64,000 nucleotides of DNA from a virus (taxonomy: Duplodnaviria > Caudoviricetes), in IMG/VR virus record IMGVR_UViG_3300035182_001315; one strand, written 5' to 3'. Positions 17,825 through 33,266 of this stretch are shown here, piece after piece. The translations under genes were made by a program, and so were the position numbers. Under the pieces are notes generated by a model. The model did not search any database and had not been told where the DNA came from. It saw only the letters and a list, made by a program, of their open reading frames with translations. The first letter of the stretch is position 1; each line of letters opens with the position of its first letter.

Positions 17825-17829
17825 AAGTA

Positions 17830-19481: not shown

Positions 19482-20193
19482 GTATACAGCCGACTTTGAC
19501 TATTTCTGGCGACTTATCAACGAAGGTATGAATGTTACCTTTGCGAGATATGCCGATGGGGAAGTTTTGCTTATGCGTGGACATTCTGTTGGTAGTGACA
19601 CACAGGCTGGTAGGGTTGATAATTGGACATCTCCCGGTGGAACAACCAAGGTTGGTGCTGACCTTTTGCAAACCCTCAACCACGAAGAAAACGATTATTA
19701 CTATGCCATCTCTGGAATGAGCGATGATATGAATGACCACAAATACTTGAGAAGCGTTATTAAGCAAAATGAATCGCATTTGACGTTCGTTAACCTTTGG
19801 ATAAACGCAAATTATTCGAGGATGAAAGAAATGTTGTTGAATCTGAAACGTCCTGTTATTCTGATAGCGAATGAGATTGCACAAGGAAAGCCTTTCCCAT
19901 TTCCAGTAACGCATTTTACCGGCTTCCCAAACAACTGCATTCAATTCTGGGAGCAATTTGGCGACGAATACTCTCAATTCTTGCTGGATAATTACGGAAA
20001 AATGGAGAATCAGCTATTTTTTATCTCCTGCGGACCTGTTTCTGAGATTATTATTCACAAGCTTTATCAGAACAATCCTAACAATGCGTACATTGATGTT
20101 GGCTCATCCTTGGATGAACTTGTACATGGTAGACAAACCAGACCCTACATGAACCCAGCTTCAAGATACGCCAACGAAAAATCAAGTTTCTAA
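19474..20193 (+). CDS. GT-D fold (DUF1792-like) glycosyltransferase
   Basis: FARYADGE...ISCGPVS...YIDVGS resembles the RFGDGE...GP...AIDIG pattern. Confidence 0.6.
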   Translation: MDKYTADFDYFWRLINEGMNVTFARYADGEVLLMRGHSVGSDTQAGRVDNWTSPGGTTKVGADLLQTLNHEENDYYYAISGMSDDMNDHKYLRSVIKQNESHLTFVNLWINANYSRMKEMLLNLKRPVILIANEIAQGKPFPFPVTHFTGFPNNCIQFWEQFGDEYSQFLLDNYGKMENQLFFISCGPVSEIIIHKLYQNNPNNAYIDVGSSLDELVHGRQTRPYMNPASRYANEKSSF

Positions 20194-20888
20194 TGATACA
20201 AGTAGCATATTCTAATTCGGTTTGTAAGGACCTCTGGCCAGCATTTTATAAACTGTTGATGATTCATTCAAAGATGCAAACATATTCAATCTTGGATATA
20301 GAAGCACCTTATTATATCGACAAGCATTTTATTTACGCCGGTGATGCACCCTATTACAAGGCTTGGACTGATGCATTAAAAGCTCTCCCAAACGAATTCT
20401 TTATCTATCTTCAAGAAGATTTTTTCCTTTACGATAGAGTAGACATGGTTAAGATAAGAGAGTACGAAACTTACCTTAAGGAACATCCTGAGTATTCATT
20501 CGTAAGACTTTTGAAATCCGGTGCGCTGGGTAACAAAAAGATTACTGATACCCTTTACGAAATCGAATCGACCAATCAAGATATTTTCTCCATGCAAGCC
20601 ACCATCTGGAGAAGTTCAGATTACATAAAGTTACTTGAGGAAGTGAAAGATGAGAAATGGCTTGAGAACTACAAATACCGTGACGCAGCCATCAAGCTTG
20701 GCATAAAGGGCCTCTACCATTACGATGGTGAGCCTAAGAGGGGCGGAGCACACTATGACAGCAAAGTTTATCCCTACATCGCCACGGCGCTCGTAAGGGG
20801 CAAATGGAACCTTTCTGAATATCCAAAGGAACTTGGGAAAATTGGACAAGACCATAACATTGATTTTACAAAAAGAGGAACTTACTAA
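20193..20888 (+). CDS. Putative GT-A glycosyltransferase
   Basis: FIYLQEDFFL; FSMQATIW; island context. Confidence 0.55.
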   Translation: MIQVAYSNSVCKDLWPAFYKLLMIHSKMQTYSILDIEAPYYIDKHFIYAGDAPYYKAWTDALKALPNEFFIYLQEDFFLYDRVDMVKIREYETYLKEHPEYSFVRLLKSGALGNKKITDTLYEIESTNQDIFSMQATIWRSSDYIKLLEEVKDEKWLENYKYRDAAIKLGIKGLYHYDGEPKRGGAHYDSKVYPYIATALVRGKWNLSEYPKELGKIGQDHNIDFTKRGTY

Positions 20889-21646
20889 TGGCAAATGAAA
20901 ACTTAGGTGTTTGGGAAGGATTCAAGAATTCTGTCAGACATCACTTAAATACGGATAATATAAATAACTTTCATAACTGGCCGGTGCTTCAGCAGACAAT
21001 GATTGCTGGGATTGATGCGGTGGAATTTACTCACTTGCAAAATTCACCTCTTTGGTCTAAGTGGATGGAAACACTGAATGAAACAGCCCTTCAACCCAAC
21101 TCTTATAACCCATTCCCAAGCAGCTCAACCAACAACATGCATCACGCATATTCCTTGGATGTAATGATGAGCCTTTTGGGGTTGAATCTTAATGAATTTG
21201 GTACAATTGTTGAGTTCGGCGGCGGCTATGGCAACACAGCCCGTTTGTTCAAAAGATGGGGTCACACCGGCGATTTTTATATCTACGACATCCCAGAACT
21301 TCTGGAAATCCAGAGGCATTACCTGACAGTAAACAATGCACCAGAAATCAAGCTTATCTCCGGCGCTGAGGCTCTGGGAGAGATTGGAAAAAATTCTTTG
21401 TTCCTTGGGTTATGGTCTATCAGTGAAGTGCCGGTTGAAGCCAGAGCAGCGTTGCTTGACCAGTTGAAGTTTTATGAATGTGAGAACATCTTCATCGCCA
21501 TGGGTGAAACCTTCTATCAAGAGAATAATATGGCTTGGTTGCAAGAGGTTGTAATACCAAAGCTTGGCCCAAAGTATGCGCATGAGTTTGTAAGGATTGC
21601 ACATGGCCAAGGTATGTACTATTTCCGAGCTAAAAAGACGGATTAA
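20888..21646 (+). CDS. Putative sugar O-methyltransferase
   Basis: VEFGGGYG SAM motif; IYDIPE; WSISE. Confidence 0.75.
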   Translation: MANENLGVWEGFKNSVRHHLNTDNINNFHNWPVLQQTMIAGIDAVEFTHLQNSPLWSKWMETLNETALQPNSYNPFPSSSTNNMHHAYSLDVMMSLLGLNLNEFGTIVEFGGGYGNTARLFKRWGHTGDFYIYDIPELLEIQRHYLTVNNAPEIKLISGAEALGEIGKNSLFLGLWSISEVPVEARAALLDQLKFYECENIFIAMGETFYQENNMAWLQEVVIPKLGPKYAHEFVRIAHGQGMYYFRAKKTD

Positions 21647-21649
21647 GGG

Positions 21650-21680
21650 TTTACATATTTATTTTTAATTAGTATCTTTG
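21650..21680 (+). promoter_or_regulatory. Bacteroidota-type promoter TTTACA-N17-TATCTTTG
   Basis: TAnnTTTG at 21673-21680, 7 nt before ATG 21688. Confidence 0.7.
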
Positions 21681-21687
21681 CGTAACT

Positions 21688-22458
21688 ATGAAAGTTATCG
21701 CATTGACCTACGACTATGATTTAACCAAACTGGCTGAAATTGGGAGAAAATGGGCACCTGATGTTTATGGAAACAAGGACTATATCTTCGAATATTCAGC
21801 GGCATCCTATGCTACATTTTTGGACAAAAATCCAAACAAAGTACTTCATCTTTACACTGATGACATTCCTCTTATAAAAGAAAAGCTTAGCAAATATGTT
21901 ACCGGCCTTGAGTGGGTAATTTTCTATGATATTAACCACCTACTGGAGAAATATAAAAATGGGATGAGATACAGCTTTGATATGCTGACAGACTTCATCC
22001 ATTACGGCAAATCTCAAACAGAATTTACACTTAAGATTGATAATGATTTGGTATTTCATTCTGAAGTACCTGAACCGGCAACGGAAGGTAATGTCGTTTA
22101 CGTATGGAAATACGAAAGGCTGGTTAAGGAAGGTGACCCACGCATGGGCGAAATAAAGGTTGCCTCAGAAACCCTTGGTACCCTTGATTTCCCAATCTAC
22201 AACTTGGGTGTTTTTGGTTTACCGGCTCAATACCCAGAAGATGAGGTTCGTGAATTGATTGATAGAATGGTTGACGTTGATATCAGACCCGTAAGTGATT
22301 TGGGTGTAAAGATATGGCATTGCGCCGAACAGACGGCAAATAATTGGATTTTTCATGAAGTTGGCTACCACGTTGTTGAAACTTTTCGACATGTAACCCA
22401 CCACTATGACAATAAGCAGCTATGTATAAAGCATGCTGAATATCTTTTAAAGAAATAA
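21688..22458 (+). CDS. Putative GT-A glycosyltransferase
   Basis: LHLYTDD; LKIDNDL (DxD); YNLGVF; AEQ. Confidence 0.5.
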   Translation: MKVIALTYDYDLTKLAEIGRKWAPDVYGNKDYIFEYSAASYATFLDKNPNKVLHLYTDDIPLIKEKLSKYVTGLEWVIFYDINHLLEKYKNGMRYSFDMLTDFIHYGKSQTEFTLKIDNDLVFHSEVPEPATEGNVVYVWKYERLVKEGDPRMGEIKVASETLGTLDFPIYNLGVFGLPAQYPEDEVRELIDRMVDVDIRPVSDLGVKIWHCAEQTANNWIFHEVGYHVVETFRHVTHHYDNKQLCIKHAEYLLKK

Positions 22459-22459
22459 C

Positions 22460-23056
22460 ATGGCTGATGAATATTCACAGGCTGGCCAAGACAAATTTGT
22501 CCTGAGCCTTGCAAAAACTGACTTAGATCCAAATCATTACTTTGTTGATATCGGATGCTGGTTACCGATTACTCTTAACAACACAATGCTTCTTGAAGAA
22601 AATAGTTGGAAAGGTGTATCATTGGATATCTCCGACATGTATGCGGATTGGACAAGTAGGAAAACTCCTTTCGTACAAGCTGATGCACTTACAATGGACT
22701 ACGCATTGCTTTTCAAGAATACTGGGTTACCCCATTTTATTGATTACCTGAATGTGGATATCGAAGGAACCGGAATGAGATTTCAAGCCCTCAAGAAGGT
22801 TTTCGAATCTGGCCATGAGTTTGGAATCATAACAATCGAGCATGATGCTTACCGTGGGTTAACCGAATCTGAAATGGTACCTCAAAGGGAATTCCTGAGT
22901 GAGAAGGGTTACAGATTGGTTTGTGCCAGTGTTTGTTTGGGTGGCAACCCATTCGAGGATTGGTGGGTAAATACAAAATTCTATAAGGATTCTGAATACG
23001 AACATCTCTTGTCAAACAATGAAGAGGCAAGTGCAATAATAGCAAAATTAAAATGA
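22460..23056 (+). CDS. FkbM-like SAM methyltransferase
   Basis: YSQAGQD...FVDIG...IDYLNVDIEG...ITIEH. Confidence 0.8.
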   Translation: MADEYSQAGQDKFVLSLAKTDLDPNHYFVDIGCWLPITLNNTMLLEENSWKGVSLDISDMYADWTSRKTPFVQADALTMDYALLFKNTGLPHFIDYLNVDIEGTGMRFQALKKVFESGHEFGIITIEHDAYRGLTESEMVPQREFLSEKGYRLVCASVCLGGNPFEDWWVNTKFYKDSEYEHLLSNNEEASAIIAKLK

Positions 23057-23610
23057 ACAATATGAGCAAAAACTATCAGAGTGATAACTCAAGCAATGTA
23101 GGCGAGTGGGAAAGCCACGCAGCCATCGCAGCAGCCGCTGAAAACGTAATCGTTGAGATTGGCGTTTTATTCGGTGACACAACAAAGGTATTGCTGGGCG
23201 CAGCAAAGCCAACAACTCACATTTACGGTATTGACCCTATAATTCCTGACTCTATGAACGAAGCCCTTATCGGTAGCGTTGAAAAGATAAATGAATTGGT
23301 TGCCCAGTATCCTAATTTCACCTTCATCAAGGATTACAGCTTCAACGTTGTTAAGACTTGGGACAAGGAAATTGATTACATCTTTATTGATGGTGACCAC
23401 CAGTACGAAGCAGTTAAGGCGGATTACGAACAATGGTTGCCTTTCGTTAAGGTTGGTGGTATCATTGCCATCCATGATTCAGCTGCGAACAGAGGCGGTC
23501 CGTTTTACTGGCCGGGGCCTTCACAATTGGCTGACGAATTAATCAATGCGTCTAATCTGGAATTCATTCAGACAAGACATACAATGACAATTTTAAAAAA
23601 AATCGCATGA
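23053..23610 (+). CDS. Class I SAM methyltransferase (Methyltransf_24-like)
   Basis: VEIGVLFG...YGID...IFIDGDHQYEAV...GGIIAIHD. Confidence 0.85.
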   Translation: MNNMSKNYQSDNSSNVGEWESHAAIAAAAENVIVEIGVLFGDTTKVLLGAAKPTTHIYGIDPIIPDSMNEALIGSVEKINELVAQYPNFTFIKDYSFNVVKTWDKEIDYIFIDGDHQYEAVKADYEQWLPFVKVGGIIAIHDSAANRGGPFYWPGPSQLADELINASNLEFIQTRHTMTILKKIA

Positions 23611-25295
23611 AAAAAAGAGTTTTAATATTGGGTGGTGGTGGCTTTATCGGCGGACACTTAGCGAAGAAACTAAAGTCTGAGGGTTGCTGGGTACGTGTTG
23701 TGGATATCAAGAAACATGAGTACTTTAAGGAAGAAGATTTCTGTCATGAATTCATTCTCGGAGACCTCAGAAATCCTTTAACCGTTTCAAAGGCAATGTT
23801 CTCCCCATCTCAATCATCACCAAATGATGCTGTTGGTAGCTTCGATGAAGTTTACCAGCTTGCGGCAGACATGGGCGGTGCCGGTTATATTTTTACTGGT
23901 GACCATGATGCAGACGTTATGCACAACTCAGCTCTTATCAACCTAAACGTTGCTCATTACGCTGAGAAGCACAAGGTGAAGAAGATATTTTACTCTTCAT
24001 CAGCATGCATGTATCCTGAACACAACCAGCTTGACCCTTTGAATCCAAACTGTGAAGAATCTTCTGCATACCCTGCAAATCCAGATTCTGAATATGGTTG
24101 GGAAAAGTTATTCAGCGAAAGACTCTACGGAGCATTCAGCCGTAACTATGGAATGGATGTACGTATTGCAAGGTTCCACAACATCTTCGGTCCTTATGGA
24201 ACATGGAAGGGTGGAAAGGAAAAAGCACCGGCAGCTATGTGCAGAAAGGCCGCTGAAACTGAGGCTGGCAGCAGCATTGAGGTTTGGGGTGACGGTCAAC
24301 AGACTCGTTCATTCTTATACATTGATGATTGTCTTAAGGCAATTGAGAAGTTCATGGAATCTAATTTCCAAGGGCCGGTGAATATCGGTTCTGAAGAAAT
24401 GGTAACAATCAACGAATTGGCTCAAATGGCTATTGATTTATCAGGAAAAGACATTAAGATTGATAATATTAAGGGTGTTGAATTCTTGTTGAAATACGGA
24501 TTCAATTGTCCTACAGGTGTTAGAGGAAGAAATTCTGATAACAAACTGTTCGAAGAAAAAATGAAGTGGAAGGTTAATCAGCCGTTGAAGGATGGCATGG
24601 CCAAGACCTTTAATTGGATAAAGAACCAGTTATACATGGATAAATTTTGCGTAGTAGTACAAGGCCCCAGCACCCAAGTGGATGAAATCAGGACAGCGTT
24701 CGGTGAGGCCGGTATTCATGTTATCTTTTCTACATGGGAAGGACAGAGGGATAAATATTCTGATAGCGATATCGTGGTGTTTAACGAATATCCAACTGAT
24801 GCTGGAATAGGGAATATCAACTATCAGAAGATTACAACTCTCAATGGTTTGATGAAAGCGAAACAGCTGGGGTTTGACTACGCATTAAAATTCAGAAGTG
24901 ACCAAATTCCGACGAATCCAAAAGAATTCGTTAAGTCTTTTTTTAATGACAGGCTTAACTTCTTTGCTTGGCACTTCACACCGGATTTGGCAATCAAGGG
25001 TTACATGGTTGATTATTTTATGTCTGGGCCGATTGACCAACTCATTGATATCTGGACGTTCGAATCAATCAGGTACAGCATTCCAGAGGCGATGATAACC
25101 AATGGAATTCTGAAGAATTTTGAGAAGTTCAATTTCCTTGTAAATGTTTTGGATGAGGACAACGATGTGTACTGGGACAAATATAAGATTAAACTTAGTA
25201 ACTTCAAGAACATCAAAACAACAACTTGGTTCGGTGAAATCGACCTGAGAATTGAGCCGGTTGTTCATGAAGCATATAAAACAGTTTTCGAATGA
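23607..25295 (+). CDS. GDP-mannose 3',5'-epimerase-like NAD-dependent epimerase fused to a C-terminal WavE-like domain
   Basis: GGGGFIG, LAADMGG, SSSACMYP, SEYGWEK, GGKEKAPAAMCRK; from about residue 345 VVVQGP...IFSTW...NINYQ...KFRSD. Confidence 0.85.
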   Translation: MKKRVLILGGGGFIGGHLAKKLKSEGCWVRVVDIKKHEYFKEEDFCHEFILGDLRNPLTVSKAMFSPSQSSPNDAVGSFDEVYQLAADMGGAGYIFTGDHDADVMHNSALINLNVAHYAEKHKVKKIFYSSSACMYPEHNQLDPLNPNCEESSAYPANPDSEYGWEKLFSERLYGAFSRNYGMDVRIARFHNIFGPYGTWKGGKEKAPAAMCRKAAETEAGSSIEVWGDGQQTRSFLYIDDCLKAIEKFMESNFQGPVNIGSEEMVTINELAQMAIDLSGKDIKIDNIKGVEFLLKYGFNCPTGVRGRNSDNKLFEEKMKWKVNQPLKDGMAKTFNWIKNQLYMDKFCVVVQGPSTQVDEIRTAFGEAGIHVIFSTWEGQRDKYSDSDIVVFNEYPTDAGIGNINYQKITTLNGLMKAKQLGFDYALKFRSDQIPTNPKEFVKSFFNDRLNFFAWHFTPDLAIKGYMVDYFMSGPIDQLIDIWTFESIRYSIPEAMITNGILKNFEKFNFLVNVLDEDNDVYWDKYKIKLSNFKNIKTTTWFGEIDLRIEPVVHEAYKTVFE

Positions 25296-26017
25296 ATGTA
25301 TTAATACCAATGGCTGGGCTGGGTTCTCGTTTTCCAGTAAGTGAATACAAGGTACCGAAGCCAATGATACCGATAAAGAATTTTGGTCTACCAATGATTG
25401 AGGTGGCTATCAAAACTCTTGATGTTTCTGGTAAATATATTTTTATTGTAAACAGTGCTCAACCAGAATATTTTGAAGTTGTGAAGACTCTTTGGAAAGC
25501 GGCTAATAATCCAATAATCATCAATGTTGATTATTTAACAGAAGGCCCAGCTTCAACTTGTTTATTGGCAACTCAATTTATTAACAACGATGAACCGTTG
25601 GTTATTGCTAACTGCGACCAAATTATGGAATGGTCAGGACAGTCTTTTTTGGAATACTGTAACCAATCAGATTCAGATGGTATCGTTGTAACGTATGATG
25701 TACAGACAACAAAAAACAGTTATGTGAAACTGGATGAGCGTGGATGGGCAACTGAATTTGCTGAAAAGAAAATCATCAGTAATCACTCCCTTAATGGTAT
25801 TCATTACTGGAAGAAGGGGTCTGATTTCGTTGAGTCAGCAATGAAAATGATTGACAAAGACATCAGGGTGAACAATGAATTTTATATTTCCCAGACGTAC
25901 AATGAACTTGTACAGGAAGGAAAGAAAATAACAATTTATGAAATAGACAAGTTTCAGCACTGGGCCGTAGGAACACCTGAAGACTTGGATAAATACAATG
26001 AACATGCGAATTTATAA
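25292..26017 (+). CDS. Sugar-phosphate nucleotidyltransferase (NTP_transferase family)
   Basis: LIPMAGLGSRF...PKPMI...TEGPAST...IANCDQ...NNEFYI. Confidence 0.85.
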   Translation: MNVLIPMAGLGSRFPVSEYKVPKPMIPIKNFGLPMIEVAIKTLDVSGKYIFIVNSAQPEYFEVVKTLWKAANNPIIINVDYLTEGPASTCLLATQFINNDEPLVIANCDQIMEWSGQSFLEYCNQSDSDGIVVTYDVQTTKNSYVKLDERGWATEFAEKKIISNHSLNGIHYWKKGSDFVESAMKMIDKDIRVNNEFYISQTYNELVQEGKKITIYEIDKFQHWAVGTPEDLDKYNEHANL

Positions 26018-26327
26018 TTTACGTGATATGGTGGGTGGTTGGTTTGTAGGTAACTTCGAACCGGCAGCATTACAAACAGATACTTTCGAGGTTTGTTATA
26101 AGCATCATAAAGAAGGTGAAGTATGGGACACACATTACCATAAGGAAGCCATTGAAGTTAATTTATTGGTTAAGGGTACGATGTTCATTAACGATATGAA
26201 GATAGTAGCTGGTGAAATCTTTGTTATTCCACCTTATTATGTTTCAGCACCAGTATTTGCAAGTGATTGTGAGCTGGTCGTAATTAAAACACCTTCAATT
26301 AAGGGTGACAAATATGTAGTAAAATAA
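25998..26327 (+). CDS. Cupin-fold protein
   Basis: HYH...E metal motif; GEIFVIPP. Confidence 0.75.
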   Translation: MNMRIYNLRDMVGGWFVGNFEPAALQTDTFEVCYKHHKEGEVWDTHYHKEAIEVNLLVKGTMFINDMKIVAGEIFVIPPYYVSAPVFASDCELVVIKTPSIKGDKYVVK

Positions 26328-26332
26328 ACGAT

Positions 26333-27514
26333 ATGATATTTAAAGAAAAATTAAACGAACAGGATTACATTATAGTGAAGTACTATCTTGAATCAGAAAC
26401 CAACCTCAGAGATGCGGCTTGGAATTTGGCGATTGGCCAAAGCGTAGGTAACCCTAATGTAAGAAACAAATGGGAAAGCGATGAGTTATTCGAAAAATAT
26501 TCCGCAATGGTGGAAGGTGACGAGGAATCTTTAAAAGGTGTGAAGGGAGGGATAGTGAAGATTGGATTCCCCAAAATCAATTTGGATTGGGCTACTGACG
26601 GTGTTTCTCAATTGCTTTGCTTCATTATGGGTGGCCAGATGGACATCGACAACGTAACCAAGTGTCACGTGTTGGATATCGACTTCCCAGAATCAATCTC
26701 TTCAACATTCCTTAAGCCAAAGTTTGGCCTTACAGGATTCAGAGATTTCAGCAACACACATGGCAAGCCTTTCTTTGGTGCTATCGTAAAACCAAAGACT
26801 GGCATTTCAAGTGATGTACTTTTGGAGATGGTAAAGGAAATGGTTGATGGTGGTGTAAACTTCATCAAGGAAGACGAAATTCTTTCTAACCCAGCATTCT
26901 GTACGATTGAAGAAAGAGTTCCGAAAATCATGGAATACGTTAAAGGTAAGGGTGTGATATACTCTGTGTGTATCAACTCAGACCCTGCATATATATTGGA
27001 CCGTGTAAAGCGTGTTCACGAGCTGGGTGGAAACTCAGTTCACGTTAATTTTTGGTCTGGCCTTGGCGTATATAAGTCAATCCGTGAATTGGACCTTCCG
27101 ATTTTTATTCACTTCCAGAAATCTGGTGACAAGACCCTGACTGCAAAGTCTCACGATTATCATATCGAATGGTATGTAATCTGTAAGCTGGCCGCAGCCA
27201 TGGGTGTGGATTCGATTCATGCTGGCATGTATGGTGGTTATTTGAATGATGAGAAAGAAGAACTTCTTCACAACTTGGGGGTATTGAGAAGTGCGAATGT
27301 TATCCCAGCCTTGAGTTGTGGCATGCATGCCGGTTTGATTGACTACGTTACTGATAACGTGGGTATCGATTACATGGCGAACGTTGGTGGGGCTATTCAT
27401 GGTCATCCAGATTCAACCGGAGCCGGTTGTAGAGCAATAAGACAAGCCATAGACAAAACCTATGGTGAAGAATACTACAAGGCAATTGCCAAGTGGGGTA
27501 AAAAAACTGACTAA
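26333..27514 (+). CDS. RuBisCO-like protein (form IV RLP)
   Basis: GAIVKPKTG, GGVNFIKEDE, DSIHAG, PALSCG, VGGAIHGHP; several carboxylase residues substituted. Confidence 0.92.
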   Translation: MIFKEKLNEQDYIIVKYYLESETNLRDAAWNLAIGQSVGNPNVRNKWESDELFEKYSAMVEGDEESLKGVKGGIVKIGFPKINLDWATDGVSQLLCFIMGGQMDIDNVTKCHVLDIDFPESISSTFLKPKFGLTGFRDFSNTHGKPFFGAIVKPKTGISSDVLLEMVKEMVDGGVNFIKEDEILSNPAFCTIEERVPKIMEYVKGKGVIYSVCINSDPAYILDRVKRVHELGGNSVHVNFWSGLGVYKSIRELDLPIFIHFQKSGDKTLTAKSHDYHIEWYVICKLAAAMGVDSIHAGMYGGYLNDEKEELLHNLGVLRSANVIPALSCGMHAGLIDYVTDNVGIDYMANVGGAIHGHPDSTGAGCRAIRQAIDKTYGEEYYKAIAKWGKKTD

Positions 27515-28152
27515 TGATTATAAGTAATTTCGTAAACCATATCCTTGGTCAGAACAAGGATTATTCACCAAAGGTAATCTTGGACATCGGTTCAAGAGAC
27601 CTTGGCCAGAGCATTGAGCTGGGCTCCGTGTTCCCGAATGCCAAGATTTATGCCTTCGAACCAAACCCAGAACAGTTTAAGATTTGTGCTGAGTTAGCTA
27701 AGAATTATCCAAATATCACCGCAATTCCCAAGGCTGTAAGCAACATCACCGGCACCTTGGATTTTTATGTAACTCATGGTAACGTGGGCGCATCATCAAC
27801 GCTGGAACCTCTTGACGTTCCGTTCGGTACAAGCAGGGACTTTACAAAGATTACTGTTGAATCAATCATCCTTTATGATTGGTTAAACGCTGAAGGAATT
27901 GACCAAGTTGACGTTATGTGGATGGACGCTCAGGGTATCGAATTGTCTGTATTGAAAAGTCTTGGTGAAAAATTGGAAAAAGTTAAGTATCTTCACTGTG
28001 AAGCGGCAGAAATTGGGTATTACAAGGGACATCAGTTGAAGGCTGAGCTTGATGAATACTTGGTTTCAATGGGTTTTGACCTTTTATTTAAAAACGAAGC
28101 ATACCATCCTTACAAAGAGGGAGATATTATTGCTACAAACAGAAACATATGA
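27514..28152 (+). CDS. FkbM family methyltransferase
   Basis: LDIGSRD...FEPNP...AVSN...VDVMWMDAQGIE. Confidence 0.85.
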   Translation: MIISNFVNHILGQNKDYSPKVILDIGSRDLGQSIELGSVFPNAKIYAFEPNPEQFKICAELAKNYPNITAIPKAVSNITGTLDFYVTHGNVGASSTLEPLDVPFGTSRDFTKITVESIILYDWLNAEGIDQVDVMWMDAQGIELSVLKSLGEKLEKVKYLHCEAAEIGYYKGHQLKAELDEYLVSMGFDLLFKNEAYHPYKEGDIIATNRNI

Positions 28153-28712
28153 TACTTATAAGCCACAGGGGGAACATTGACGGCATCAATCCAAAATTGG
28201 AGAATGACCCGATGTATATCAAGATGGCCCTGACCATGGGTTATCATGTTGAAATTGACGTTTGGTATTCAAACGAACAATGGTACCTTGGCCATGACCT
28301 ACCAACGTTTCCAATTGATGAATCATTTCTTGAGAATGATAAGCTTTGGTGCCATTCGAAGAATCATTACGCAATGGAGAAGATGTTACATAACCATTTG
28401 ATTCATTGTTTCTGGCATGAGAATGACCAGCTGACCCTCACTTCAAAAAGATTTGTGTGGACATATATGGGTAAGAATCAAATAGCAAATTCAATTGCTG
28501 TTCTCCCTGAGAAATTTCCATTCAGAGAGATTTCACCAAACGTTGTTGGTATATGCAGCGATAATATTAAAAATTATAAAGGTAATGATATTACTCACTT
28601 ACGGAACCCGTCCAGAATATATAAAGGTTCATCCAATAATGGTGGAGATGACCAGAAGGCAAATGAAATTCAAGACTCTTTTCACAGGCCAACACAAGGA
28701 CCTGCTATCTGA
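28149..28712 (+). CDS. PLC-like/GDPD-type phosphodiesterase (short TIM barrel)
   Basis: LISHRGN...VEIDVW...LGHD...WCHSKN...GICSD. Confidence 0.65.
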   Translation: MILISHRGNIDGINPKLENDPMYIKMALTMGYHVEIDVWYSNEQWYLGHDLPTFPIDESFLENDKLWCHSKNHYAMEKMLHNHLIHCFWHENDQLTLTSKRFVWTYMGKNQIANSIAVLPEKFPFREISPNVVGICSDNIKNYKGNDITHLRNPSRIYKGSSNNGGDDQKANEIQDSFHRPTQGPAI

Positions 28713-29622
28713 TAATGAAGCTGATTACAATCACCCATTTGAAAACTTCCCCGGTAACCGTTTAGATTCGGTATTGAAGAATTGCTTGAGCCTGAACGAT
28801 AGATACTTTGATGGTATCACCCATGTATTGGTACAAGGTGATACAACGTCTGTATTGGGATTGGCTATAACAGCAATGCACAGAGGATTAAAGATTATTC
28901 ATCTTGAAGCTGGGCTAAGAACTTATGATAAACAGAATCCATTCCCAGAGGAAAACAATCGTAGACTTATTTCAGCAATCGCTGATATTCATTTATGTCC
29001 AACAATACAGAGTCAATCAAATTTAATTCGAGAAGGTATTGATGAGAATGATACATACCTTGTTGGTAACACCGGCTTAGATGAAATCTTAAAAAAAATA
29101 ATTCCTCTCCGTGATACAAGTGAACCAAAAGAAATATTAATAACTCTTCATAGACGAGAAAATCACGAGAAGATGGATGAGTGGTTTACCGCAATTAATG
29201 ATTTAGCCAAGGACTATCCACAATATAATTTTGTTGTCCCTTTGCATCCAAACCCAATGGTACAAAAGCATAAAGATTTATTAACAGATGTTGTTATCGT
29301 TGAGCCAATGTCTCATTTTCAATTGTTAAATTTCATCTCAAGAAGTAGATTGGTAATAACCGATTCGGGCGGTATTCAAGAAGAATGTTCGTTCTTGAGA
29401 AAGAAAGTGCTGGTTTGTCGTAAGATAACCGAAAGGCCAGAATCGCTGGGGTTAACGTCATGGCCGGTTATGACTCCAAACGATTTGAAGAATCTGTTTA
29501 GGAAACACAGTAGTTCCTATTTTGTTCCGCCAGATACATATTGTCCATACGGGGACGGGCATGCCTCAGAAAAAATCTGTGATATATTTCAGGGTTGGTG
29601 TAACTTCGAAAAAGGTCTTTGA
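28585..29622 (+). CDS. wecB: UDP-N-acetylglucosamine 2-epimerase (non-hydrolysing)
   Basis: GTRPE, TGQH, QGDT, HLEAGLR, PEE-NR, TLHRRE, TDSGGIQEE, ERPE; start placed at ATG 28585. Confidence 0.95.
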   Translation: MILLTYGTRPEYIKVHPIMVEMTRRQMKFKTLFTGQHKDLLSDNEADYNHPFENFPGNRLDSVLKNCLSLNDRYFDGITHVLVQGDTTSVLGLAITAMHRGLKIIHLEAGLRTYDKQNPFPEENNRRLISAIADIHLCPTIQSQSNLIREGIDENDTYLVGNTGLDEILKKIIPLRDTSEPKEILITLHRRENHEKMDEWFTAINDLAKDYPQYNFVVPLHPNPMVQKHKDLLTDVVIVEPMSHFQLLNFISRSRLVITDSGGIQEECSFLRKKVLVCRKITERPESLGLTSWPVMTPNDLKNLFRKHSSSYFVPPDTYCPYGDGHASEKICDIFQGWCNFEKGL

Positions 29623-29630
29623 TATTTATT
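29621..29630 (+). promoter_or_regulatory. Putative late promoter GATATTTATT
   Basis: Upstream of phoH. Confidence 0.55.
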
Positions 29631-29642
29631 TAAAAAGACTGC

Positions 29643-30479
29643 ATGATTAAAAAAGCGTCCGAAAAGAAACCAAGAGGTAGGAAATCCCTTTCCGCCTCGT
29701 CCGAGACCGTTACAGAAATCAAAAACAAAGCAACCTTACCAGAACTAATCAAATTCGCCCAGCCCTTCAAGTGCAAGACTAAAAACCAGAAGATATTGGC
29801 CCAACTCATTGCTGAGAAGGAAATTATCATCGCTTCTGGAGCTGCCGGTGTGGGTAAAACCTACGTAGCAATCGCTATTGCGCTAGAACTGATTAAGTCC
29901 ACAAACACACCCTTTAACAAAATTATCATATCCAAGCCAGCCGTGGAATCCGAAGAGGAACATGGCTTTTTGCCGGGAGACCAAAGAGAGAAGATGGAAC
30001 CATTCGTGGCATCCATTCTTGATATCATTGACAAGCTTATCGGCAAGGGCAGCAGGTTGGCCTTGGAAGAGGCTGGATACCTCGAAATCATGGCTCTGGC
30101 CTACGTTAGAGGTAAATCCATCGATAACGCCATTTTCATACTTGATGAGGCGCAGAACACATCCCCAAGCCAAATGAAGACGGTTCTAACCCGTATTGGC
30201 TATAACTCCAAGTTTGTAATCACTGGTGACCTTGACCAATCAGATAGGTACCGTCATATCCATGAGAGTGGATTGTATGATGCTATCAAAAAACACAAAA
30301 ATATCCCAGAAATCGGATTTATTGAGTTTGATTTGGAGGATATCGTGAGAAACAAATTGATTAGCAAGATTTTGGAGAACTACAAACAGCCGGAATTTGT
30401 TCAAAAACCAAAGGTTGTTTTGGTTAAACCAGAGAAAAAATTGCCTTGGTGGAAGAAATTTCTTAATTGGCTTCATTAA
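29643..30479 (+). CDS. phoH: PhoH family ATPase
   Basis: GAAGVGKT, LAYVRG, ILDEAQN, TRIG, GDLDQSD, DIVRN. Confidence 0.95.
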   Translation: MIKKASEKKPRGRKSLSASSETVTEIKNKATLPELIKFAQPFKCKTKNQKILAQLIAEKEIIIASGAAGVGKTYVAIAIALELIKSTNTPFNKIIISKPAVESEEEHGFLPGDQREKMEPFVASILDIIDKLIGKGSRLALEEAGYLEIMALAYVRGKSIDNAIFILDEAQNTSPSQMKTVLTRIGYNSKFVITGDLDQSDRYRHIHESGLYDAIKKHKNIPEIGFIEFDLEDIVRNKLISKILENYKQPEFVQKPKVVLVKPEKKLPWWKKFLNWLH

Positions 30480-30505
30480 TTCGGTAAATAACTGAATAGA
30501 AGTAC

Positions 30506-30534
30506 TTTACTTTATCACCAAAAGGAATTATTTT
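30506..30534 (+). promoter_or_regulatory. Host-RNAP-type promoter TTTACT-N17-TATTTT
   Basis: Spacing and position before ATG 30541. Confidence 0.45.
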
Positions 30535-30540
30535 AATTCC

Positions 30541-31143
30541 ATGAGGATAGGTATATCAATTAATGAAGTTTTAAGAAACTTTTTGGGGCAGTTAATCTAC
30601 ACTTACGAAAAGTATATTGGCGAACTCGACATCAATACGTCAGATGTAACGGACTTTGACCTTATAAAGTCATTCCCTTTCGTTACTGAAGCTGAGATGA
30701 AGAGATTCCTTTACGCTGGAGAAGGCTCATTGGAAGTCTTCGGCCACGCTGATGAGATGACAGATGGTCTTATGGGTCACTTCAATCGTTTTGTTTTGGA
30801 TCTGAAGGACGATGGTCATTACGTTGAGCTTACCGGCAAGGAAGCCAACAAAAGCATTCAATCTACTTTTTTCTACTTATCAAAAACAGGTTGCAGAATC
30901 AGCGACATTCGCTTTGTTACAGACAGTACCAAGGAATGGGACGGCCTCGACCTTTTGATTACTGCGAACCCAGACGCACTTAAAAACAAACCCAGCGGCA
31001 AAATCAGCATCAAGATAAACGCACCGTATAACACCGATGCTCCGGCTGATTACGCCTTCGACTCAATCGTTGATTTCATAAAAGATTTCAATCTACGTGA
31101 TGTCGTATTAAATACCAAAATAACAACTTACGAAGAAATTTAA
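30541..31143 (+). CDS. 5'(3')-nucleotidase (NT5C/HAD)-like protein with degenerate catalytic motif
   Basis: MRIGISINEVLRNF resembles HAD motif I; C-terminal INAPYN. Confidence 0.5.
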   Translation: MRIGISINEVLRNFLGQLIYTYEKYIGELDINTSDVTDFDLIKSFPFVTEAEMKRFLYAGEGSLEVFGHADEMTDGLMGHFNRFVLDLKDDGHYVELTGKEANKSIQSTFFYLSKTGCRISDIRFVTDSTKEWDGLDLLITANPDALKNKPSGKISIKINAPYNTDAPADYAFDSIVDFIKDFNLRDVVLNTKITTYEEI

Positions 31144-31147
31144 AACT

Positions 31148-31498
31148 ATGATAGAATTCGGTGACAGCCAGTATTACATCGACCTTGACACCTTGGATAA
31201 ATTGATTACATTAAAAGGTAGCAAGGTTGACGAAGTTACAGTCAAAACAATCACGAACCAAACAACTGGTGTTATAACTGTAGAGAAAGAAGAATTTACA
31301 AGGAAGTCAGAAGAAGGAAAGACCATCGACATGGCCAAGTATGACATGTTAAAATATTTCATTGAACTCTTGGTTGAGGATGAAAGCGTCGATGATGATT
31401 CACTGGGTTCTGAGAGAGCACTAAACAAAGCTTCATTAGCTTATAAGATAGTATTTAACACCCTCTTAAAAGAAAACGTTCTTAAAGAGGCAGAATAA
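31148..31498 (+). CDS. Hypothetical protein
   Basis: ORF in operon. Confidence 0.7.
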   Translation: MIEFGDSQYYIDLDTLDKLITLKGSKVDEVTVKTITNQTTGVITVEKEEFTRKSEEGKTIDMAKYDMLKYFIELLVEDESVDDDSLGSERALNKASLAYKIVFNTLLKENVLKEAE

Positions 31499-31514
31499 AA
31501 AACAAAACACCAAT

Positions 31515-32636
31515 ATGGAAGACAAGCAAACAAAATTGGACCAAGTTAAAGGGTTCATCAAGAATTTAGAGAATAAAGATTTTACGCTTTATTTCTTCAC
31601 GCTCGACACAAAGGGTAATCCTACTGCCGGTATCGCAAACATTTACGAACACGTAAAGGTTTTGAACAGTTTGGGTTACAAAGCCGTTATTCTTCATGAA
31701 AAGAATGACTACAAATTACACGCTGATGAAGCTGGTATGGGTATCGCAGAATGGCTGGGTGCTGAATACGCTGCATTGCCACACAAGGCAATCGAAGGTC
31801 AGAACCTGAATATCAGACCAACTGATTTCATCGTTATTCCAGAAATTTTCTCTACCATCATGGACCAAGTTAAATCTTTCCCATGTCGTAAGATTGTATT
31901 CTGCCAAAGCTATGACTATCTTTTGGAACTCCTTCCAATCGGTAAGAGATGGGATTTGGATTACGGCTTCAGCCATGTTATTACTACAAGTGAAAGACAA
32001 GCTGCTTACGTAAGACAATTGTTCCAGTACTCAAAGACTTACATTACTCCGGTGAGCATTCCTGAGTACTTCAAACCAAGCGTTACACCTAAGGTACCAA
32101 TCGTATCTATCGTTACAAGAAATCCGGGTGATGCTGCTAAGATTGCCAAGGCGTTTTACTTGCAGTACCCAATCTACAAGTGGATTACCTTCAAGGAACT
32201 TAGAGGTCTTTCAAGAGAACAATTTGCTGAAGACTTGGGTAAAAGTTGCTTAGCCGTATGGGTTGATGAAACTGCTGGTTTTGGTACATTCCCACTTGAA
32301 GCATTTGAGTGTGGTACACCTATCATTGGTAGAATCCCTAACATGGTTCCTGATTGGATGGAAACACTTGATGAGAACGGCAATGCTGTTATCAAGAACA
32401 ACGGTGTTTGGACCAACACATCAATCAACATTCCAGAACTTATCGCTACATACCTGAAGGTATGGTTCGAGGATTCAGTTCCAACTGAATTGTTGAACGT
32501 GATGAAAGAATCAGCTGGTAAATATACACCTGCTGCTCAGGCTGCTGCAATCGAAAATGTGTTCGCACAATTGGTTGCTGAAAGAATCGCTGAGCTTAGC
32601 AAACTAATCGAAAACGAAGAAACTGCTACAGCCTAA
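31515..32636 (+). CDS. Glycosyltransferase, GT-B fold
   Basis: AGIANIYEHV; VIPE; ETAGFGTFPLEAFECGTPIIG. Confidence 0.8.
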   Translation: MEDKQTKLDQVKGFIKNLENKDFTLYFFTLDTKGNPTAGIANIYEHVKVLNSLGYKAVILHEKNDYKLHADEAGMGIAEWLGAEYAALPHKAIEGQNLNIRPTDFIVIPEIFSTIMDQVKSFPCRKIVFCQSYDYLLELLPIGKRWDLDYGFSHVITTSERQAAYVRQLFQYSKTYITPVSIPEYFKPSVTPKVPIVSIVTRNPGDAAKIAKAFYLQYPIYKWITFKELRGLSREQFAEDLGKSCLAVWVDETAGFGTFPLEAFECGTPIIGRIPNMVPDWMETLDENGNAVIKNNGVWTNTSINIPELIATYLKVWFEDSVPTELLNVMKESAGKYTPAAQAAAIENVFAQLVAERIAELSKLIENEETATA

Positions 32637-33256
32637 TGGAAACGCTAATTGACATAATAAGAGAATTGGAAGCTGAGCTGTCATCAAGTAACGGTGACTA
32701 CTTAGAAATCAAGGGTATTAAAGAGAGTTATAACCAACGTCTCTTGGCTCAGTCACAATTCAGTGGGGTTACAAGAATCAATTGGCTTGAAACACCTATA
32801 TTCAAATCAGATGATAAGACTGGAATTCCATTGACTTCAATCCAAAATTATTTGGGTGTTGACAAGGTACTTATTCAAGCAGTTGAGGAATTCTCATTTC
32901 ACCCAACAGAAAGCCAAGTGGTTTTCAACGATGAGATTGATGTATTCGGTTTCCGTGTATCATCAAACATCTACGATACTTCAAACTTGGGAAAGGGTGT
33001 TTGGAAATATCCAAAGCTTTATCATCCAGCAACATTTTCAGAACAGGATAAGATTGTTATCAACTACTCCTTTTCTGACATAAAAGAAAATTTTAAATTA
33101 ACTGATGCAGAAACAAAGGCATATATCCAAGCCGTAGTTCTTCCTCAGGTAGCTGAGTTGATTGAGGCTGACGAATCAAATGCGCCACACCAAAATTATA
33201 TCGGCATAAGATGTTCAAAAAGGAGCATCAAAAGCATAAATAAACATTCAAGCTAA
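32636..33256 (+). CDS. Hypothetical protein
   Basis: ORF coupled by TAATG overlap. Confidence 0.65.
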   Translation: METLIDIIRELEAELSSSNGDYLEIKGIKESYNQRLLAQSQFSGVTRINWLETPIFKSDDKTGIPLTSIQNYLGVDKVLIQAVEEFSFHPTESQVVFNDEIDVFGFRVSSNIYDTSNLGKGVWKYPKLYHPATFSEQDKIVINYSFSDIKENFKLTDAETKAYIQAVVLPQVAELIEADESNAPHQNYIGIRCSKRSIKSINKHSS

Positions 33257-33266
33257 AACCATAACC

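What the first reader, a model, noticed from the sequence alone, without database searches (positions are those of the whole stretch)
25292..28712. Phage-encoded RuBisCO-like protein in a nucleotide-sugar module: candidate new pathway for an unusual (branched or rearranged) sugar
Seen: five tightly packed genes encoding a nucleotidyltransferase, a cupin, a form IV RLP, an FkbM methyltransferase and a PLC/GDPD-like phosphodiesterase, inside a glycosyltransferase island. By eye against spinach numbering, the RLP keeps K175/K177 (VKPK), the carbamate/Mg site K201-x-D203-E204 (FIKEDE), H327, S379 and G403/G404. It has E60Q, N123G, H294Q, R295K and K334Y, so it should not be a RuBP carboxylase. Known: characterised RLPs catalyse enolate chemistry on phosphorylated keto-sugars (B. 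subtilis MtnW DK-MTP-1-P enolase, R. rubrum MTRu-1-P isomerase, 3-oxo-isoapionate-4-P transcarboxylase/hydrolase), all in salvage or catabolism. Inference: here the RLP acts biosynthetically (isomerisation, (trans)carboxylation or decarboxylation). The cupin would epimerise or isomerise, the nucleotidyltransferase would activate the product as an NDP-sugar, and the methyltransferase would decorate it for the island's GTs. I know of no characterised anabolic RLP role in glycan synthesis.
Basis: partly seen in the sequence, partly recalled or inferred. Interest (0 to 1): 0.87.

Follow-up and report, generated by a model that had tools for sequence, protein, structure and literature searches.

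The report
Phage RuBisCO-like sugar-activation gene cassette
A large T4-like phage carries an intact RuBisCO relative that lacks key carboxylation residues and is locked, across many phages and a few tiny-celled microbes, into a four-gene cassette with a sugar-activating enzyme, so it probably helps build an unusual activated sugar, a role not yet described for this enzyme family.

Summary
Window 25292-28712 encodes five tightly packed + strand genes: an NTP-transferase, a 109-aa cupin, a 393-aa RuBisCO-like protein (RLP), an FkbM methyltransferase and a small GDPD-like phosphodiesterase (PDE). They sit in a glycosyltransferase and methyltransferase island of a T4-like myophage.

The RLP keeps the Lys-carbamate/Mg site but has lost residues needed for carboxylation. 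It belongs to its own well-supported clade, the phage and Beckwithbacteria "IV-like" clade reported by Jaffe et al. (PMC6389311) without a function.

In 78 non-redundant loci the RLP lies within 3.5 kb of the NTP-transferase (76), the PDE (65) and the cupin (61), in 20 different gene orders. NTPt-RLP, RLP-NTPt, NTPt-cupin and HAD-NTPt fusions all exist. The methyltransferase is accessory, found in 24 of 100 loci. Other frequent neighbours are NDP-sugar tailoring enzymes. In a complete Pelagibacter chromosome the cassette sits beside LPS-type genes.

My best reading is a four-enzyme route to an unusual nucleotide-activated sugar, with the RLP doing enolisation (isomerisation or epimerisation). 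The substrate is unknown.

Earlier agents of this scan reached the same reading on other DNA. This report adds the PDE as a core member, the ManC-like NTPt-cupin architecture and the HAD fusions.

The parts
25292..26017 (+). NTP-transferase (NTPt, GT-A fold sugar-phosphate nucleotidylyltransferase); the hub of the cassette
   Evidence: PF00483 at 4.1e-9. The family profile hits PDB 4evw (V. cholerae NDP-sugar pyrophosphorylase) at 8e-34, then RmlA and GMPP at about 1e-10. R13, K23, D109 and the E158-K159 pair are invariant in the family. It lies within 3.5 kb of the RLP in 76 of 78 non-redundant loci. Fusions to the RLP, the cupin or a HAD domain are seen.
25998..26327 (+). 109-aa metal cupin, closest in fold to phosphomannose-isomerase cupins
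   Evidence: AF2 pLDDT 96. Foldseek PDB hits include the mini-PMIs 7zvm and 7zvy. The top 15 Swiss-Prot AFDB hits are the C-terminal PMI cupin of ManC, XanB and AlgA. H46, H48 and E53 are invariant. Present in 61 of 78 loci. Fused C-terminally to NTPt in about 16 loci.
26333..27514 (+). RuBisCO-like protein of the 'IV-like' phage/Beckwithbacteria clade
   Evidence: PF00016 at 1.6e-35. It scores below the cut-off of every NCBIfam RuBisCO or RLP equivalog. Its clade has 45 rows with SH-aLRT 100.
27514..28152 (+). FkbM-family methyltransferase (accessory tailoring enzyme, not core)
   Evidence: PF05050 at 6e-14 and TIGR01444 at 5e-21. The family is present in 24 of 100 loci by de novo clustering.
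28149..28712 (+). Minimal GDPD-like phosphodiesterase (PDE). The structured domain is residues 1 to about 145 (window 28149 to about 28585). The tail is disordered and overlaps wecB.
   Evidence: Profile hit to GDPD 7e0v at 2e-4. AF2 model. Foldseek hits to GDPDs with probability 0.99 but E only 3.5e-3. The Atlas shows a 141-157-aa family whose members with a taxon record are viral. H6, R7, E35, D37, H49, H69 and K71 are invariant. Present in 65-68 of 78 loci.
23607..25295 (+). SDR NDP-sugar epimerase/dehydratase fused to a WavE-like C-terminal domain (frequent accessory)
   Evidence: PF01370 at 4.6e-39 and a WavE hit at 4.6e-6, below its cut-off. The SDR family is found in 39 of 100 loci.
28585..29622 (+). 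WecB-type UDP-GlcNAc 2-epimerase (accessory)
   Evidence: TIGR00236 at 1.6e-69, matching from ORF residue 32. A Met at ORF residue 31 is the probable start.
14045..34079 (+). Surrounding glycan island: several GT2-family glycosyltransferases and methyltransferases, with PhoH interspersed
   Evidence: Pfam hits.

Best explanation
The window holds a conserved four-enzyme cassette (NTP-transferase, small cupin, IV-like RLP and mini-GDPD phosphodiesterase). I read it as making an unusual nucleotide-activated sugar or sugar phosphate, which the neighbouring tailoring enzymes and glycosyltransferases then use.

Proposed mechanism (inferred):
1. The RLP uses its retained carbamylated-Lys/Mg2+ site and K175 to enolise a phosphorylated or NDP-linked 2-keto-sugar. 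This moves or inverts a centre (isomerisation or 3-epimerisation). It does not carboxylate.
2. The cupin acts as an aldose-ketose isomerase, like the PMI domain of ManC.
3. The mini-GDPD, or a HAD phosphatase/mutase in some loci, resets the phosphate by cleaving a phosphodiester, a cyclic phosphate or a distal phosphate.
4. The NTP-transferase attaches the NMP.

Shown: the genes, their folds, the retained and lost active-site residues, the linkage, the fusions and the glycan-island context. Inferred: the order of steps, the substrate and the product.
For: - Linkage: in 78 non-redundant loci from phage contigs and cellular genome assemblies, NTPt lies within 3.5 kb of the RLP in 76, the PDE in 65 and the cupin in 61. 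This holds across 20 different gene orders and strand arrangements.
- Fusions: NTPt-RLP (P0091, P0107, P0117, L001) and the reverse RLP-NTPt (P0125). NTPt-cupin, always in that order, direct or with an insert of about 80 aa, as in ManC-type PMI-GMP. HAD_2-NTPt in about a quarter of the top NTPt homologues.
- The cupin's nearest Swiss-Prot structures are the PMI cupins of ManC, XanB and AlgA.
- RLP chemistry: K175, K177, K201, D203, E204, H327, S379, G381 and G403 are invariant or nearly so in the clade. Q294, K/R295 and Y334 replace H294, R295 and K334.
- Accessory neighbours are NDP-sugar tailoring enzymes: SDR in 39 loci, FkbM in 24, Methyltransf_24/TylF-type in 23 plus 11, DegT aminotransferase in 12, C-methyltransferase in 11, plus WavE and glycosyltransferases.
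- In the complete Ca. Pelagibacter sp. Uisw_094 chromosome the cassette lies between a GT9 heptosyltransferase, a HAD-NTPt fusion and a CMP-sugar-synthase-like gene.
Against: - No substrate or product is known. No kinase or classical phosphomutase is part of the core, so a complete route from a central metabolite cannot be written.
- The PDE's role is not explained by any known NDP-sugar pathway.
- The cupin's sequence profile also hits quercetin dioxygenases, so oxygenase chemistry is not excluded.
- Some loci, such as the Verrucomicrobiae chromosome L095, have no glycan genes nearby.
- Most of the 16 cellular hits come from metagenome-assembled or single-cell genomes, which I did not check for mis-binned phage DNA.
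Confidence: 0.55

Rival explanations
1. Acireductone-type chemistry modelled on methionine salvage. The RLP acts as an enolase (like MtnW), the HAD or mini-GDPD removes the phosphate (like MtnX), and the cupin acts as a dioxygenase (like MtnD/ARD). The substrate would be a different, sugar-derived diketo-phosphate. The shortened or acidic product would then be activated or consumed together with the NTP-transferase.
For: The RLP + HAD + cupin trio recurs here. It matches the MtnW-MtnX-MtnD enzyme classes known from the B. subtilis pathway (established knowledge; see also PMC3698126, listed). The cupin profile's best PDB sequence hit is quercetin 2,3-dioxygenase at 4e-6. Its invariant metal ligands are only H46, H48 and E53.
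Against: The position that aligns with N123 is K in the true MtnW representative (P0207) and is G in this clade. My recollection, not tested here, is that this Lys is MtnW's enolisation base. The MtnW models score 126-150 bits against cut-offs of 409-514. No ARD/MtnD appears among the top 30 structural matches, whereas PMI cupins fill the top 15. No mtn genes are nearby. This reading does not explain the near-universal link to an NTP-transferase.
Confidence: 0.13
2. The cassette makes an NDP-activated ketose phosphate or polyol phosphate, comparable to CDP-xylulose, CDP-arabinitol, CDP-ribitol or CDP-glycerol. This would serve phosphodiester-linked (teichoic-acid-like) decoration. The NTP-transferase would act on a primary phosphate, the RLP would epimerise the keto-pentose moiety, and the GDPD-like enzyme would supply or edit phosphodiester-linked units.
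For: GDPDs act on polyol phosphodiesters, and the PDE keeps the GDPD catalytic set. The NTPt profile also weakly matches inositol-1-P and MEP cytidylyltransferases and IspD. The RLP keeps the backbone P1 phosphate site and a cationic residue at 295. From my own knowledge, not checked here, nucleotidylyl transfer to xylulose-5-P is reported for the S. pneumoniae CDP-arabinitol pathway.
Against: No reductase and no polyol-phosphate transferase (TagF, LicD or Stealth type) turned up among the conserved neighbours. The accessory enzymes (4,6-dehydratase-type SDR, DegT, C-methyltransferase) are typical of NDP-hexose pathways.
Confidence: 0.12
3. The cassette is not for glycans. It would modify nucleotides or DNA (phage DNA hypermodification), or make or destroy a nucleotide-derived signal as counter-defence.
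For: The PDE family is viral in every Atlas member with a taxon record, and the RLP clade is mostly viral. The NTP-transferase and the phosphodiesterase both handle nucleotidyl groups. A distant RLP is fused to a TIR domain (P0203).
Against: Cellular copies sit in LPS-type gene clusters. The accessory neighbours are sugar-tailoring enzymes and glycosyltransferases. No DNA-modification genes are consistently linked.
Confidence: 0.07
4. The RLP is a working carboxylase or a form III-like enzyme of a pentose-bisphosphate (nucleotide salvage) pathway, or a methionine/MTA-salvage auxiliary gene of the MtnW or R. rubrum type.
For: Its best NCBIfam score is to form III (170 bits), and K175, K177, K201, D203, E204, H327 and S379 are kept. 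R. rubrum pairs an RLP with a cupin in the MTA-isoprenoid shunt (papers listed: PMC5893883, PMC4958253).
Against: All scores are far below the cut-offs: 170 against 497, 150 against 409 and 123 against 700. The residue at E60 plus N123, H294 and K334 are replaced clade-wide. No AMP phosphorylase, R15P isomerase, PRK or mtn genes were found among the neighbours I annotated. The clade is separate from MtnW and OiaX with SH-aLRT 100.
Confidence: 0.06

Closest known systems
'Form IV-like' RuBisCO-related proteins of phages and Beckwithbacteria (Jaffe, Castelle, Dupont and Banfield, Mol Biol Evol 2019, PMC6389311)
   Same: Same clade. A Beckwithbacteria MAG sequence (L091) and a Patescibacteria one nest inside the 45-row clade that holds the window's RLP. 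The carriers are Myoviridae-type phages from varied environments. The key residues diverge from those of known form IV enzymes.
   Different: That paper reports the proteins and their phylogeny only. A text search of it finds no word beginning 'nucleotidyl', 'glycosyl' or 'neighbor', and it leaves the function open. The four-gene cassette and the fusions are additional to it.
MtnW / YkrW 2,3-diketo-5-methylthiopentyl-1-phosphate enolase (B. subtilis, G. kaustophilus; PDB 2oek)
   Same: Best PDB sequence hit (1.4e-35). Shares the RuBisCO large-subunit fold, K175 and the K201 carbamate/Mg triad, and has G at the E60 position.
   Different: The window RLP scores 126-150 bits against cut-offs of 409-514. 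The Lys at the N123 position of true MtnW is G here. K177, H327 and S379 are kept here but K177 and H327 are lost in MtnW. No mtn neighbours. Separate clade.
ManC / CpsB / XanB / AlgA type II phosphomannose isomerase - GDP-mannose pyrophosphorylase
   Same: Same two-domain logic and order: NTP_transferase at the N-terminus and a cupin at the C-terminus, either as separate adjacent genes or fused, with or without a linker of about 80 aa. The cupin's top 15 Swiss-Prot structural matches are these PMI domains.
   Different: Much smaller domains. The cupin is only 15-25% identical to those PMI domains. No phosphomannomutase partner. It is coupled instead to an RLP and a mini-GDPD. The sugar is unknown.
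R. rubrum / R. palustris MTA-isoprenoid shunt (DeepYkrW RLP 1,3-isomerase plus cupin methylsulfurylase)
   Same: An RLP working together with a small cupin on a keto-pentose phosphate. It shows that RLPs can shift a carbonyl along a sugar phosphate.
   Different: That system is a salvage pathway for MTA. It has no NTP-transferase or GDPD partner and uses a different RLP clade. I could not fetch its cupin sequence to compare.
OiaX / OiaT RLPs of D-apiose catabolism
   Same: RLPs acting on branched keto-acid sugar phosphates. OiaX is annotated on the plasmid hits, at about 26-28% identity.
   Different: The window RLP scores 123 bits against a cut-off of 700. Separate clade. OiaX has lost K177, H327 and S379. 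The context is catabolic.
Glycerophosphodiester phosphodiesterases (GlpQ/UgpQ family, PF03009)
   Same: The HRG, ExD, HD and Lys motifs and the barrel fold of the catalytic half.
   Different: Only about 145 aa, against 220-250. No Pfam hit. The family's Atlas members with a taxon record are viral. The substrate is unknown.
GmhB-HddC steps of NDP-heptose synthesis (HAD phosphatase followed by nucleotidylyltransferase)
   Same: HAD plus NTP-transferase pairing. Weak NTPt hits to HddC. A GT9 heptosyltransferase sits beside the Pelagibacter cassette.
   Different: No GmhA or heptose kinase. The HAD here is of the HAD_2/TIGR01509 type. Similarity to HddC is marginal.

Membership tests
RuBisCO large-subunit superfamily (PF00016/PF02788) | Both Pfam domains score above their gathering cut-offs | tested here: met
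   PF00016 scores 123.3 bits against 30.1. PF02788 scores 21.9 bits against 20.7.
Bona fide RuBisCO (forms I-III) | Full catalytic set: E60, N123, K175, K177, K201, D203, E204, H294, R295, H327, K334, S379, G403/404 | tested here: not met
   E60->G, N123->G, H294->Q, R295->K, H298->D and K334->Y. The replacing residues are conserved across the clade. The form III model scores 170 bits against a cut-off of 497.
Phage/Beckwithbacteria 'IV-like' RLP clade (Jaffe et al. 2019) | Monophyly with the Beckwithbacteria and phage sequences, apart from other RLP clades | tested here: met
   A 45-row clade with SH-aLRT 100 contains the window RLP, phage contig sequences, and the Beckwithbacteria, Patescibacteria, Pelagibacter and Woesearchaeota sequences.
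MtnW (YkrW) DK-MTP-1-P enolase | Score above the NCBIfam equivalog cut-off, Lys at the N123 position, and mtn gene context | tested here: not met
   150 bits against 409, and 126 bits against 514. G at the N123 position. No mtn genes nearby. A true MtnW representative (P0207, 652 bits) lies in another clade.
OiaX 3-oxo-isoapionate-4-P decarboxylase | Score above the NCBIfam cut-off, and clade membership | tested here: not met
   123 bits against 700. Separate clade from the Agrobacterium OiaX anchor.
Sugar-phosphate nucleotidylyltransferase (PF00483) | Pfam score above cut-off, and the conserved GxGxR...K, D and EK catalytic motifs | tested here: met
   36.8 bits against 21.2. G9, R13, K23, D109, E158 and K159 are invariant in 31 family members. 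Hit to 4evw at 8e-34. Substrate specificity was not testable.
Cupin superfamily (PMI-type) | Double-stranded beta-helix fold with an HxH...E metal motif | tested here: met
   AF2 pLDDT 96. Foldseek probability 1.00 to many cupins. H46, H48 and E53 are invariant. No conserved fourth His was found. PMI activity itself is not testable here.
GDPD (PF03009) | Pfam score above cut-off and a full (beta/alpha)8 barrel of about 230 aa | tested here: not met
   No Pfam hit even at E <= 1. Only about 145 structured residues. The profile and fold similarity are limited to the catalytic half, and the catalytic motifs are retained. It works like a GDPD but is not a member by the curated model.
FkbM methyltransferase (TIGR01444/PF05050) | Score above the cut-offs | tested here: met
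   75.7 bits against 37.7, and 52.9 bits against 22.7.

The most novel reading that the evidence does not exclude
The IV-like RLP would be the first RuBisCO-superfamily enzyme with a biosynthetic role. It would act on a nucleotide-linked or bisphosphorylated keto-sugar inside a self-contained four-enzyme route (RLP, cupin, mini-GDPD, NTP-transferase). That route would generate a so far undescribed activated sugar, and it would replace the usual kinase or phosphomutase logic by handling the phosphate through a phosphodiester or cyclic phosphate. Phages would spread the route among hosts with very small genomes, such as SAR11, CPR bacteria and DPANN archaea.
Probability: 0.3. Interest if true: 0.88.

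Novelty: new variant of a known kind. Interest (0 to 1): 0.66.

Why it matters
RuBisCO-like proteins are a textbook case of an enzyme superfamily taking on new functions. All characterised members work in salvage or catabolism.

Novel RuBisCO-homologue groups have been visible in ocean metagenomes since 2007 (GOS, PMC1821046), although I did not test whether those are this clade. Phage-borne IV-like RLPs were reported in 2018-2019, without a function.

The tight, shuffled but persistent linkage to an NTP-transferase, a PMI-like cupin and a miniature phosphodiesterase, together with fusions in several combinations, turns that open question into a defined four-protein reconstitution experiment.

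If the product is a new activated sugar, three things would follow. It would add a new reaction class to the RLP superfamily. It would reveal how large phages remodel surface or virion glycans. And it would explain part of the glycan hypervariability of abundant plankton such as SAR11.

Tried and rejected
- DNA (megablast) and tblastn searches of the RLP region against 50,697 GenBank phage records found nothing. No isolate phage in that collection carries this RLP.
- Single-sequence scans of IMG/VR and GTDB genomes found nothing. The alignment-based scans succeeded.
- Complex prediction on RLP + NTP-transferase gave 'no answer' (score 0.00, controls not run). This says nothing for or against binding.
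- The look-up of sequencing runs listed only DNA holders, from sediment and microbial-mat metagenomes, three of which may be the source sample. No RNA holder was listed. I did not lay any reads.
- The sigma-70 promoter and terminator scans were at chance level (57 against 50.7 expected; 18 against 13.4), so operon boundaries could not be set.
- The genome search 'own' failed because no whole genome is held for this window. The control genomes gave no usable loci, so B. subtilis MtnW and Synechococcus RbcL could not be used as anchors. I used plasmid-borne form I RbcL and OiaX instead.
- Literature searches for RLP with nucleotidyltransferase, cupin, nucleotide sugar, auxiliary metabolic gene or phage found no paper describing the cassette. 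The search for '4EVW' found no functional paper.
- I could not fetch the R. rubrum cupin (methylsulfurylase), so that analogy remains untested.
- I considered and rejected the methyltransferase as a core member (24 of 100 loci).

Full report
**What is there.**
The window is part of a large T4-like myophage. It has a major capsid protein (46944-48809, - strand), a portal, a large terminase, tail-fibre-like proteins, PhoH and a sigma-like factor. The nearest isolate phages share only about 37-42% amino-acid identity in the capsid protein (Flavobacterium phage immuto, Microcystis phage Mel-JY01). The DNA occurs in sediment and microbial-mat metagenomes.

Three have clear family hits:
- NTP_transferase
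- RuBisCO_large plus its N-terminal domain
- FkbM methyltransferase

The 109-aa ORF has no Pfam hit. It carries a textbook cupin metal motif, folds confidently as a cupin (pLDDT 96) and matches cupins in the PDB and Swiss-Prot models.

The 187-aa ORF has no Pfam hit either. Its family profile matches the HRG...ExD...HD catalytic half of glycerophosphodiester phosphodiesterases (GDPDs). Its model is very confident for residues 1-145. The best PDB and Atlas fold matches are GDPDs. The last 40 or so residues are disordered and overlap the probable true start of the downstream WecB gene at 28585.

The surrounding + strand block is a glycan island. It has several GT2-type glycosyltransferases, several methyltransferases, an SDR epimerase/dehydratase fused to a WavE-like domain, and WecB.

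**The RLP.**
Against solved structures it is about equally distant from MtnW (2oek, 1.4e-35) and a RuBisCO entry (8dht, 2.6e-35). Every curated NCBIfam RuBisCO or RLP model scores far below its cut-off:

| Model | Score (bits) | Cut-off (bits) |
|---|---|---|
| Form III | 170 | 497 |
| MtnW | 150 | 409 |
| OiaX | 123 | 700 |

I built a maximum-likelihood tree of 127 sequences. It included representatives from a search of 1.84 billion proteins, a plasmid-borne form I RbcL and an annotated OiaX as anchors, and a representative confirmed as true MtnW (P0207). The window's protein falls in a 45-row clade with SH-aLRT 100. That clade also holds sequences from Beckwithbacteria, Patescibacteria, Saccharibacteria, Pelagibacter, Verrucomicrobiae and Woesearchaeota assemblies. 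This is the "IV-like" clade that Jaffe et al. reported on Myoviridae-type phage contigs and Beckwithbacteria, with the function left open.

- Kept, and invariant or nearly so across the 44 clade members examined: K175, K177, K201, D203, E204, H327, S379, G381 and G403/404.
- Changed: N123 is G, H294 is Q, R295 is K (R in some members), H298 is D and K334 is Y.
- E60 aligns with G35. Q36 is one position further on, so "E60Q" is off by one.

The enolisation apparatus and the backbone phosphate site therefore survive. The residues used for carboxylation, hydration and C-C cleavage do not.

**The conserved unit.**
A profile of the clade found 261 relatives in IMG/VR, on contigs up to 518 kb, and 16 in GTDB species genomes. 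I searched 99 loci with the window's own neighbours. After removing near-duplicates, 78 loci remained.

| Partner | Loci with it within 3.5 kb of the RLP (of 78) |
|---|---|
| NTP-transferase | 76 |
| Mini-GDPD | 65 (68 anywhere in the locus) |
| Cupin | 61 |

These occur in 20 different orders and orientations. The commonest order is N-C-R-P, as in the window (35 loci). De novo clustering of all neighbouring ORFs gives the same core. It shows that the FkbM methyltransferase is accessory (24 of 100 loci).

The next most frequent neighbours are all NDP-sugar tailoring or glycan enzymes:
- SDR epimerase/dehydratase (39 loci)
- Methyltransf_24/TylF-type methyltransferases (23 and 11 loci)
- DegT/EryC1 aminotransferase (12 loci)
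- a C-methyltransferase (11 loci)
- WavE and multidomain glycosyltransferases

**Fusions.**
NTPt-RLP fusions occur (P0091, P0107, P0117, L001). So does the reverse order, RLP-NTPt (P0125), so the fusion probably arose more than once. About 16 loci have NTPt-cupin fusions. These are always in that order, either direct (343-361 aa) or with an insert of about 80 aa (434-471 aa).

This is the architecture of ManC/AlgA-type bifunctional phosphomannose isomerase / GDP-mannose pyrophosphorylases. The C-terminal cupins of those enzymes are the top 15 Swiss-Prot structural matches of the phage cupin.

About a quarter of the best NTPt homologues are fused to a HAD_2 (TIGR01509-type) phosphatase/mutase domain. 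This includes RLP-linked loci (L025, L036, L009) and a second copy in Pelagibacter. The NTP-transferase is thus the hub of the cassette.

**Cellular context.**
In the complete chromosome of Ca. Pelagibacter sp. Uisw_094 the PDE-NTPt-RLP unit has these neighbours:
- a HAD-NTPt fusion
- a GT9 heptosyltransferase
- a D-2-hydroxyacid dehydrogenase
- a CMP-sugar-synthase-like cytidylyltransferase

This is an LPS-type island. In a Verrucomicrobiae chromosome the neighbours are uninformative and include a transposase.

**Interpretation.**
The test comes out in favour of the sugar-nucleotide reading.

I commit to a four-enzyme route to an unusual nucleotide-activated sugar:
1. The RLP performs Mg-dependent enolisation (isomerisation or 3-epimerisation) of a phosphorylated or NDP-linked 2-keto-sugar.
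2. The cupin acts as an aldose-ketose isomerase.
3. The mini-GDPD, or a HAD domain where present, resets the phosphate.
4. The NTP-transferase attaches the nucleotide.

Only the parts list, the linkage, the retained and lost residues and the context are shown. The order of steps, the substrate and the product are inference.

The main rival framework is the MtnW-MtnX-MtnD logic (RLP enolase, HAD phosphatase, cupin dioxygenase) applied to another substrate. Against it:
- The Lys that true MtnW has at the N123 position is absent.
- ARD-type cupins are missing from the structural matches.
- It does not explain the NTP-transferase hub.

The cupin's sequence similarity to quercetinases keeps this rival alive. 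Further rivals are scored in the rival section: a polyol or ketose-phosphate donor for phosphodiester decoration, nucleotide or DNA modification or counter-defence, and true carboxylase or salvage roles.

**Novelty.**
Phage RLPs of this clade are already published. A text search of that paper finds no mention of nucleotidyltransferases, glycosyltransferases or gene neighbours. No paper in the searchable library links RLPs to nucleotidyltransferases, cupins or nucleotide sugars.

Earlier agents of this scan reached the same general reading on other phage genomes. I reproduced the RLP-NTPt-cupin linkage independently. I add the mini-GDPD as a fourth core member, the ManC-like NTPt-cupin architecture, the frequent HAD fusions, and the demotion of the methyltransferase to an accessory.

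I rate it a new variant of a known kind: a known superfamily and a known clade, in an undescribed pathway context. There is a substantial chance that the chemistry itself is new.

Noticed in passing
P0203 (representative protein; not in the window): A 583-aa protein with an N-terminal TIR_2 domain fused to a distant RLP (29% identity to the window RLP; Pfam). I have not seen a TIR-RLP fusion described.
   Followed up: no
P0165 and P0195 (not in the window): IF-2B family domains (the family of ribose-1,5-bisphosphate isomerase) fused N-terminally to a RuBisCO that scores strongly on both Pfam RuBisCO domains (726 and 742 aa). This would join two steps of the archaeal AMP pathway in one polypeptide.
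   Followed up: no
window 28495-28712: The 187-aa PDE ORF runs 128 nt into the probable WecB coding region (start at 28585). This C-terminal tail is predicted disordered. The closest relatives (L004, L005) also have a 188-aa PDE ORF with wecB close downstream, so the overlap seems conserved rather than a sequencing error.
   Followed up: partly
window 23607-25295: An SDR NDP-sugar epimerase/dehydratase (residues 1 to about 340) carries a WavE-like LPS-synthesis domain at its C-terminus. The WavE hit, 26.5 bits, is just below its 27-bit cut-off. In relatives the WavE-like part also occurs as a separate ORF.
   Followed up: partly
loci L001-L099: The mini-GDPD family has 121 copies in 88 loci, so many phages carry a second paralogue near the cassette.
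   Followed up: no
L031, L035, L039, L049, L050 (NTPt-cupin fusions of 434-471 aa): An insert of about 80 aa between the NTPt and cupin domains has no Pfam match. It could be a linker domain like the one in ManC.
   Followed up: partly
L046:3801-6425: An 874-aa ORF with about 525 N-terminal residues of unknown family, followed by the NTPt-cupin fusion.
   Followed up: no
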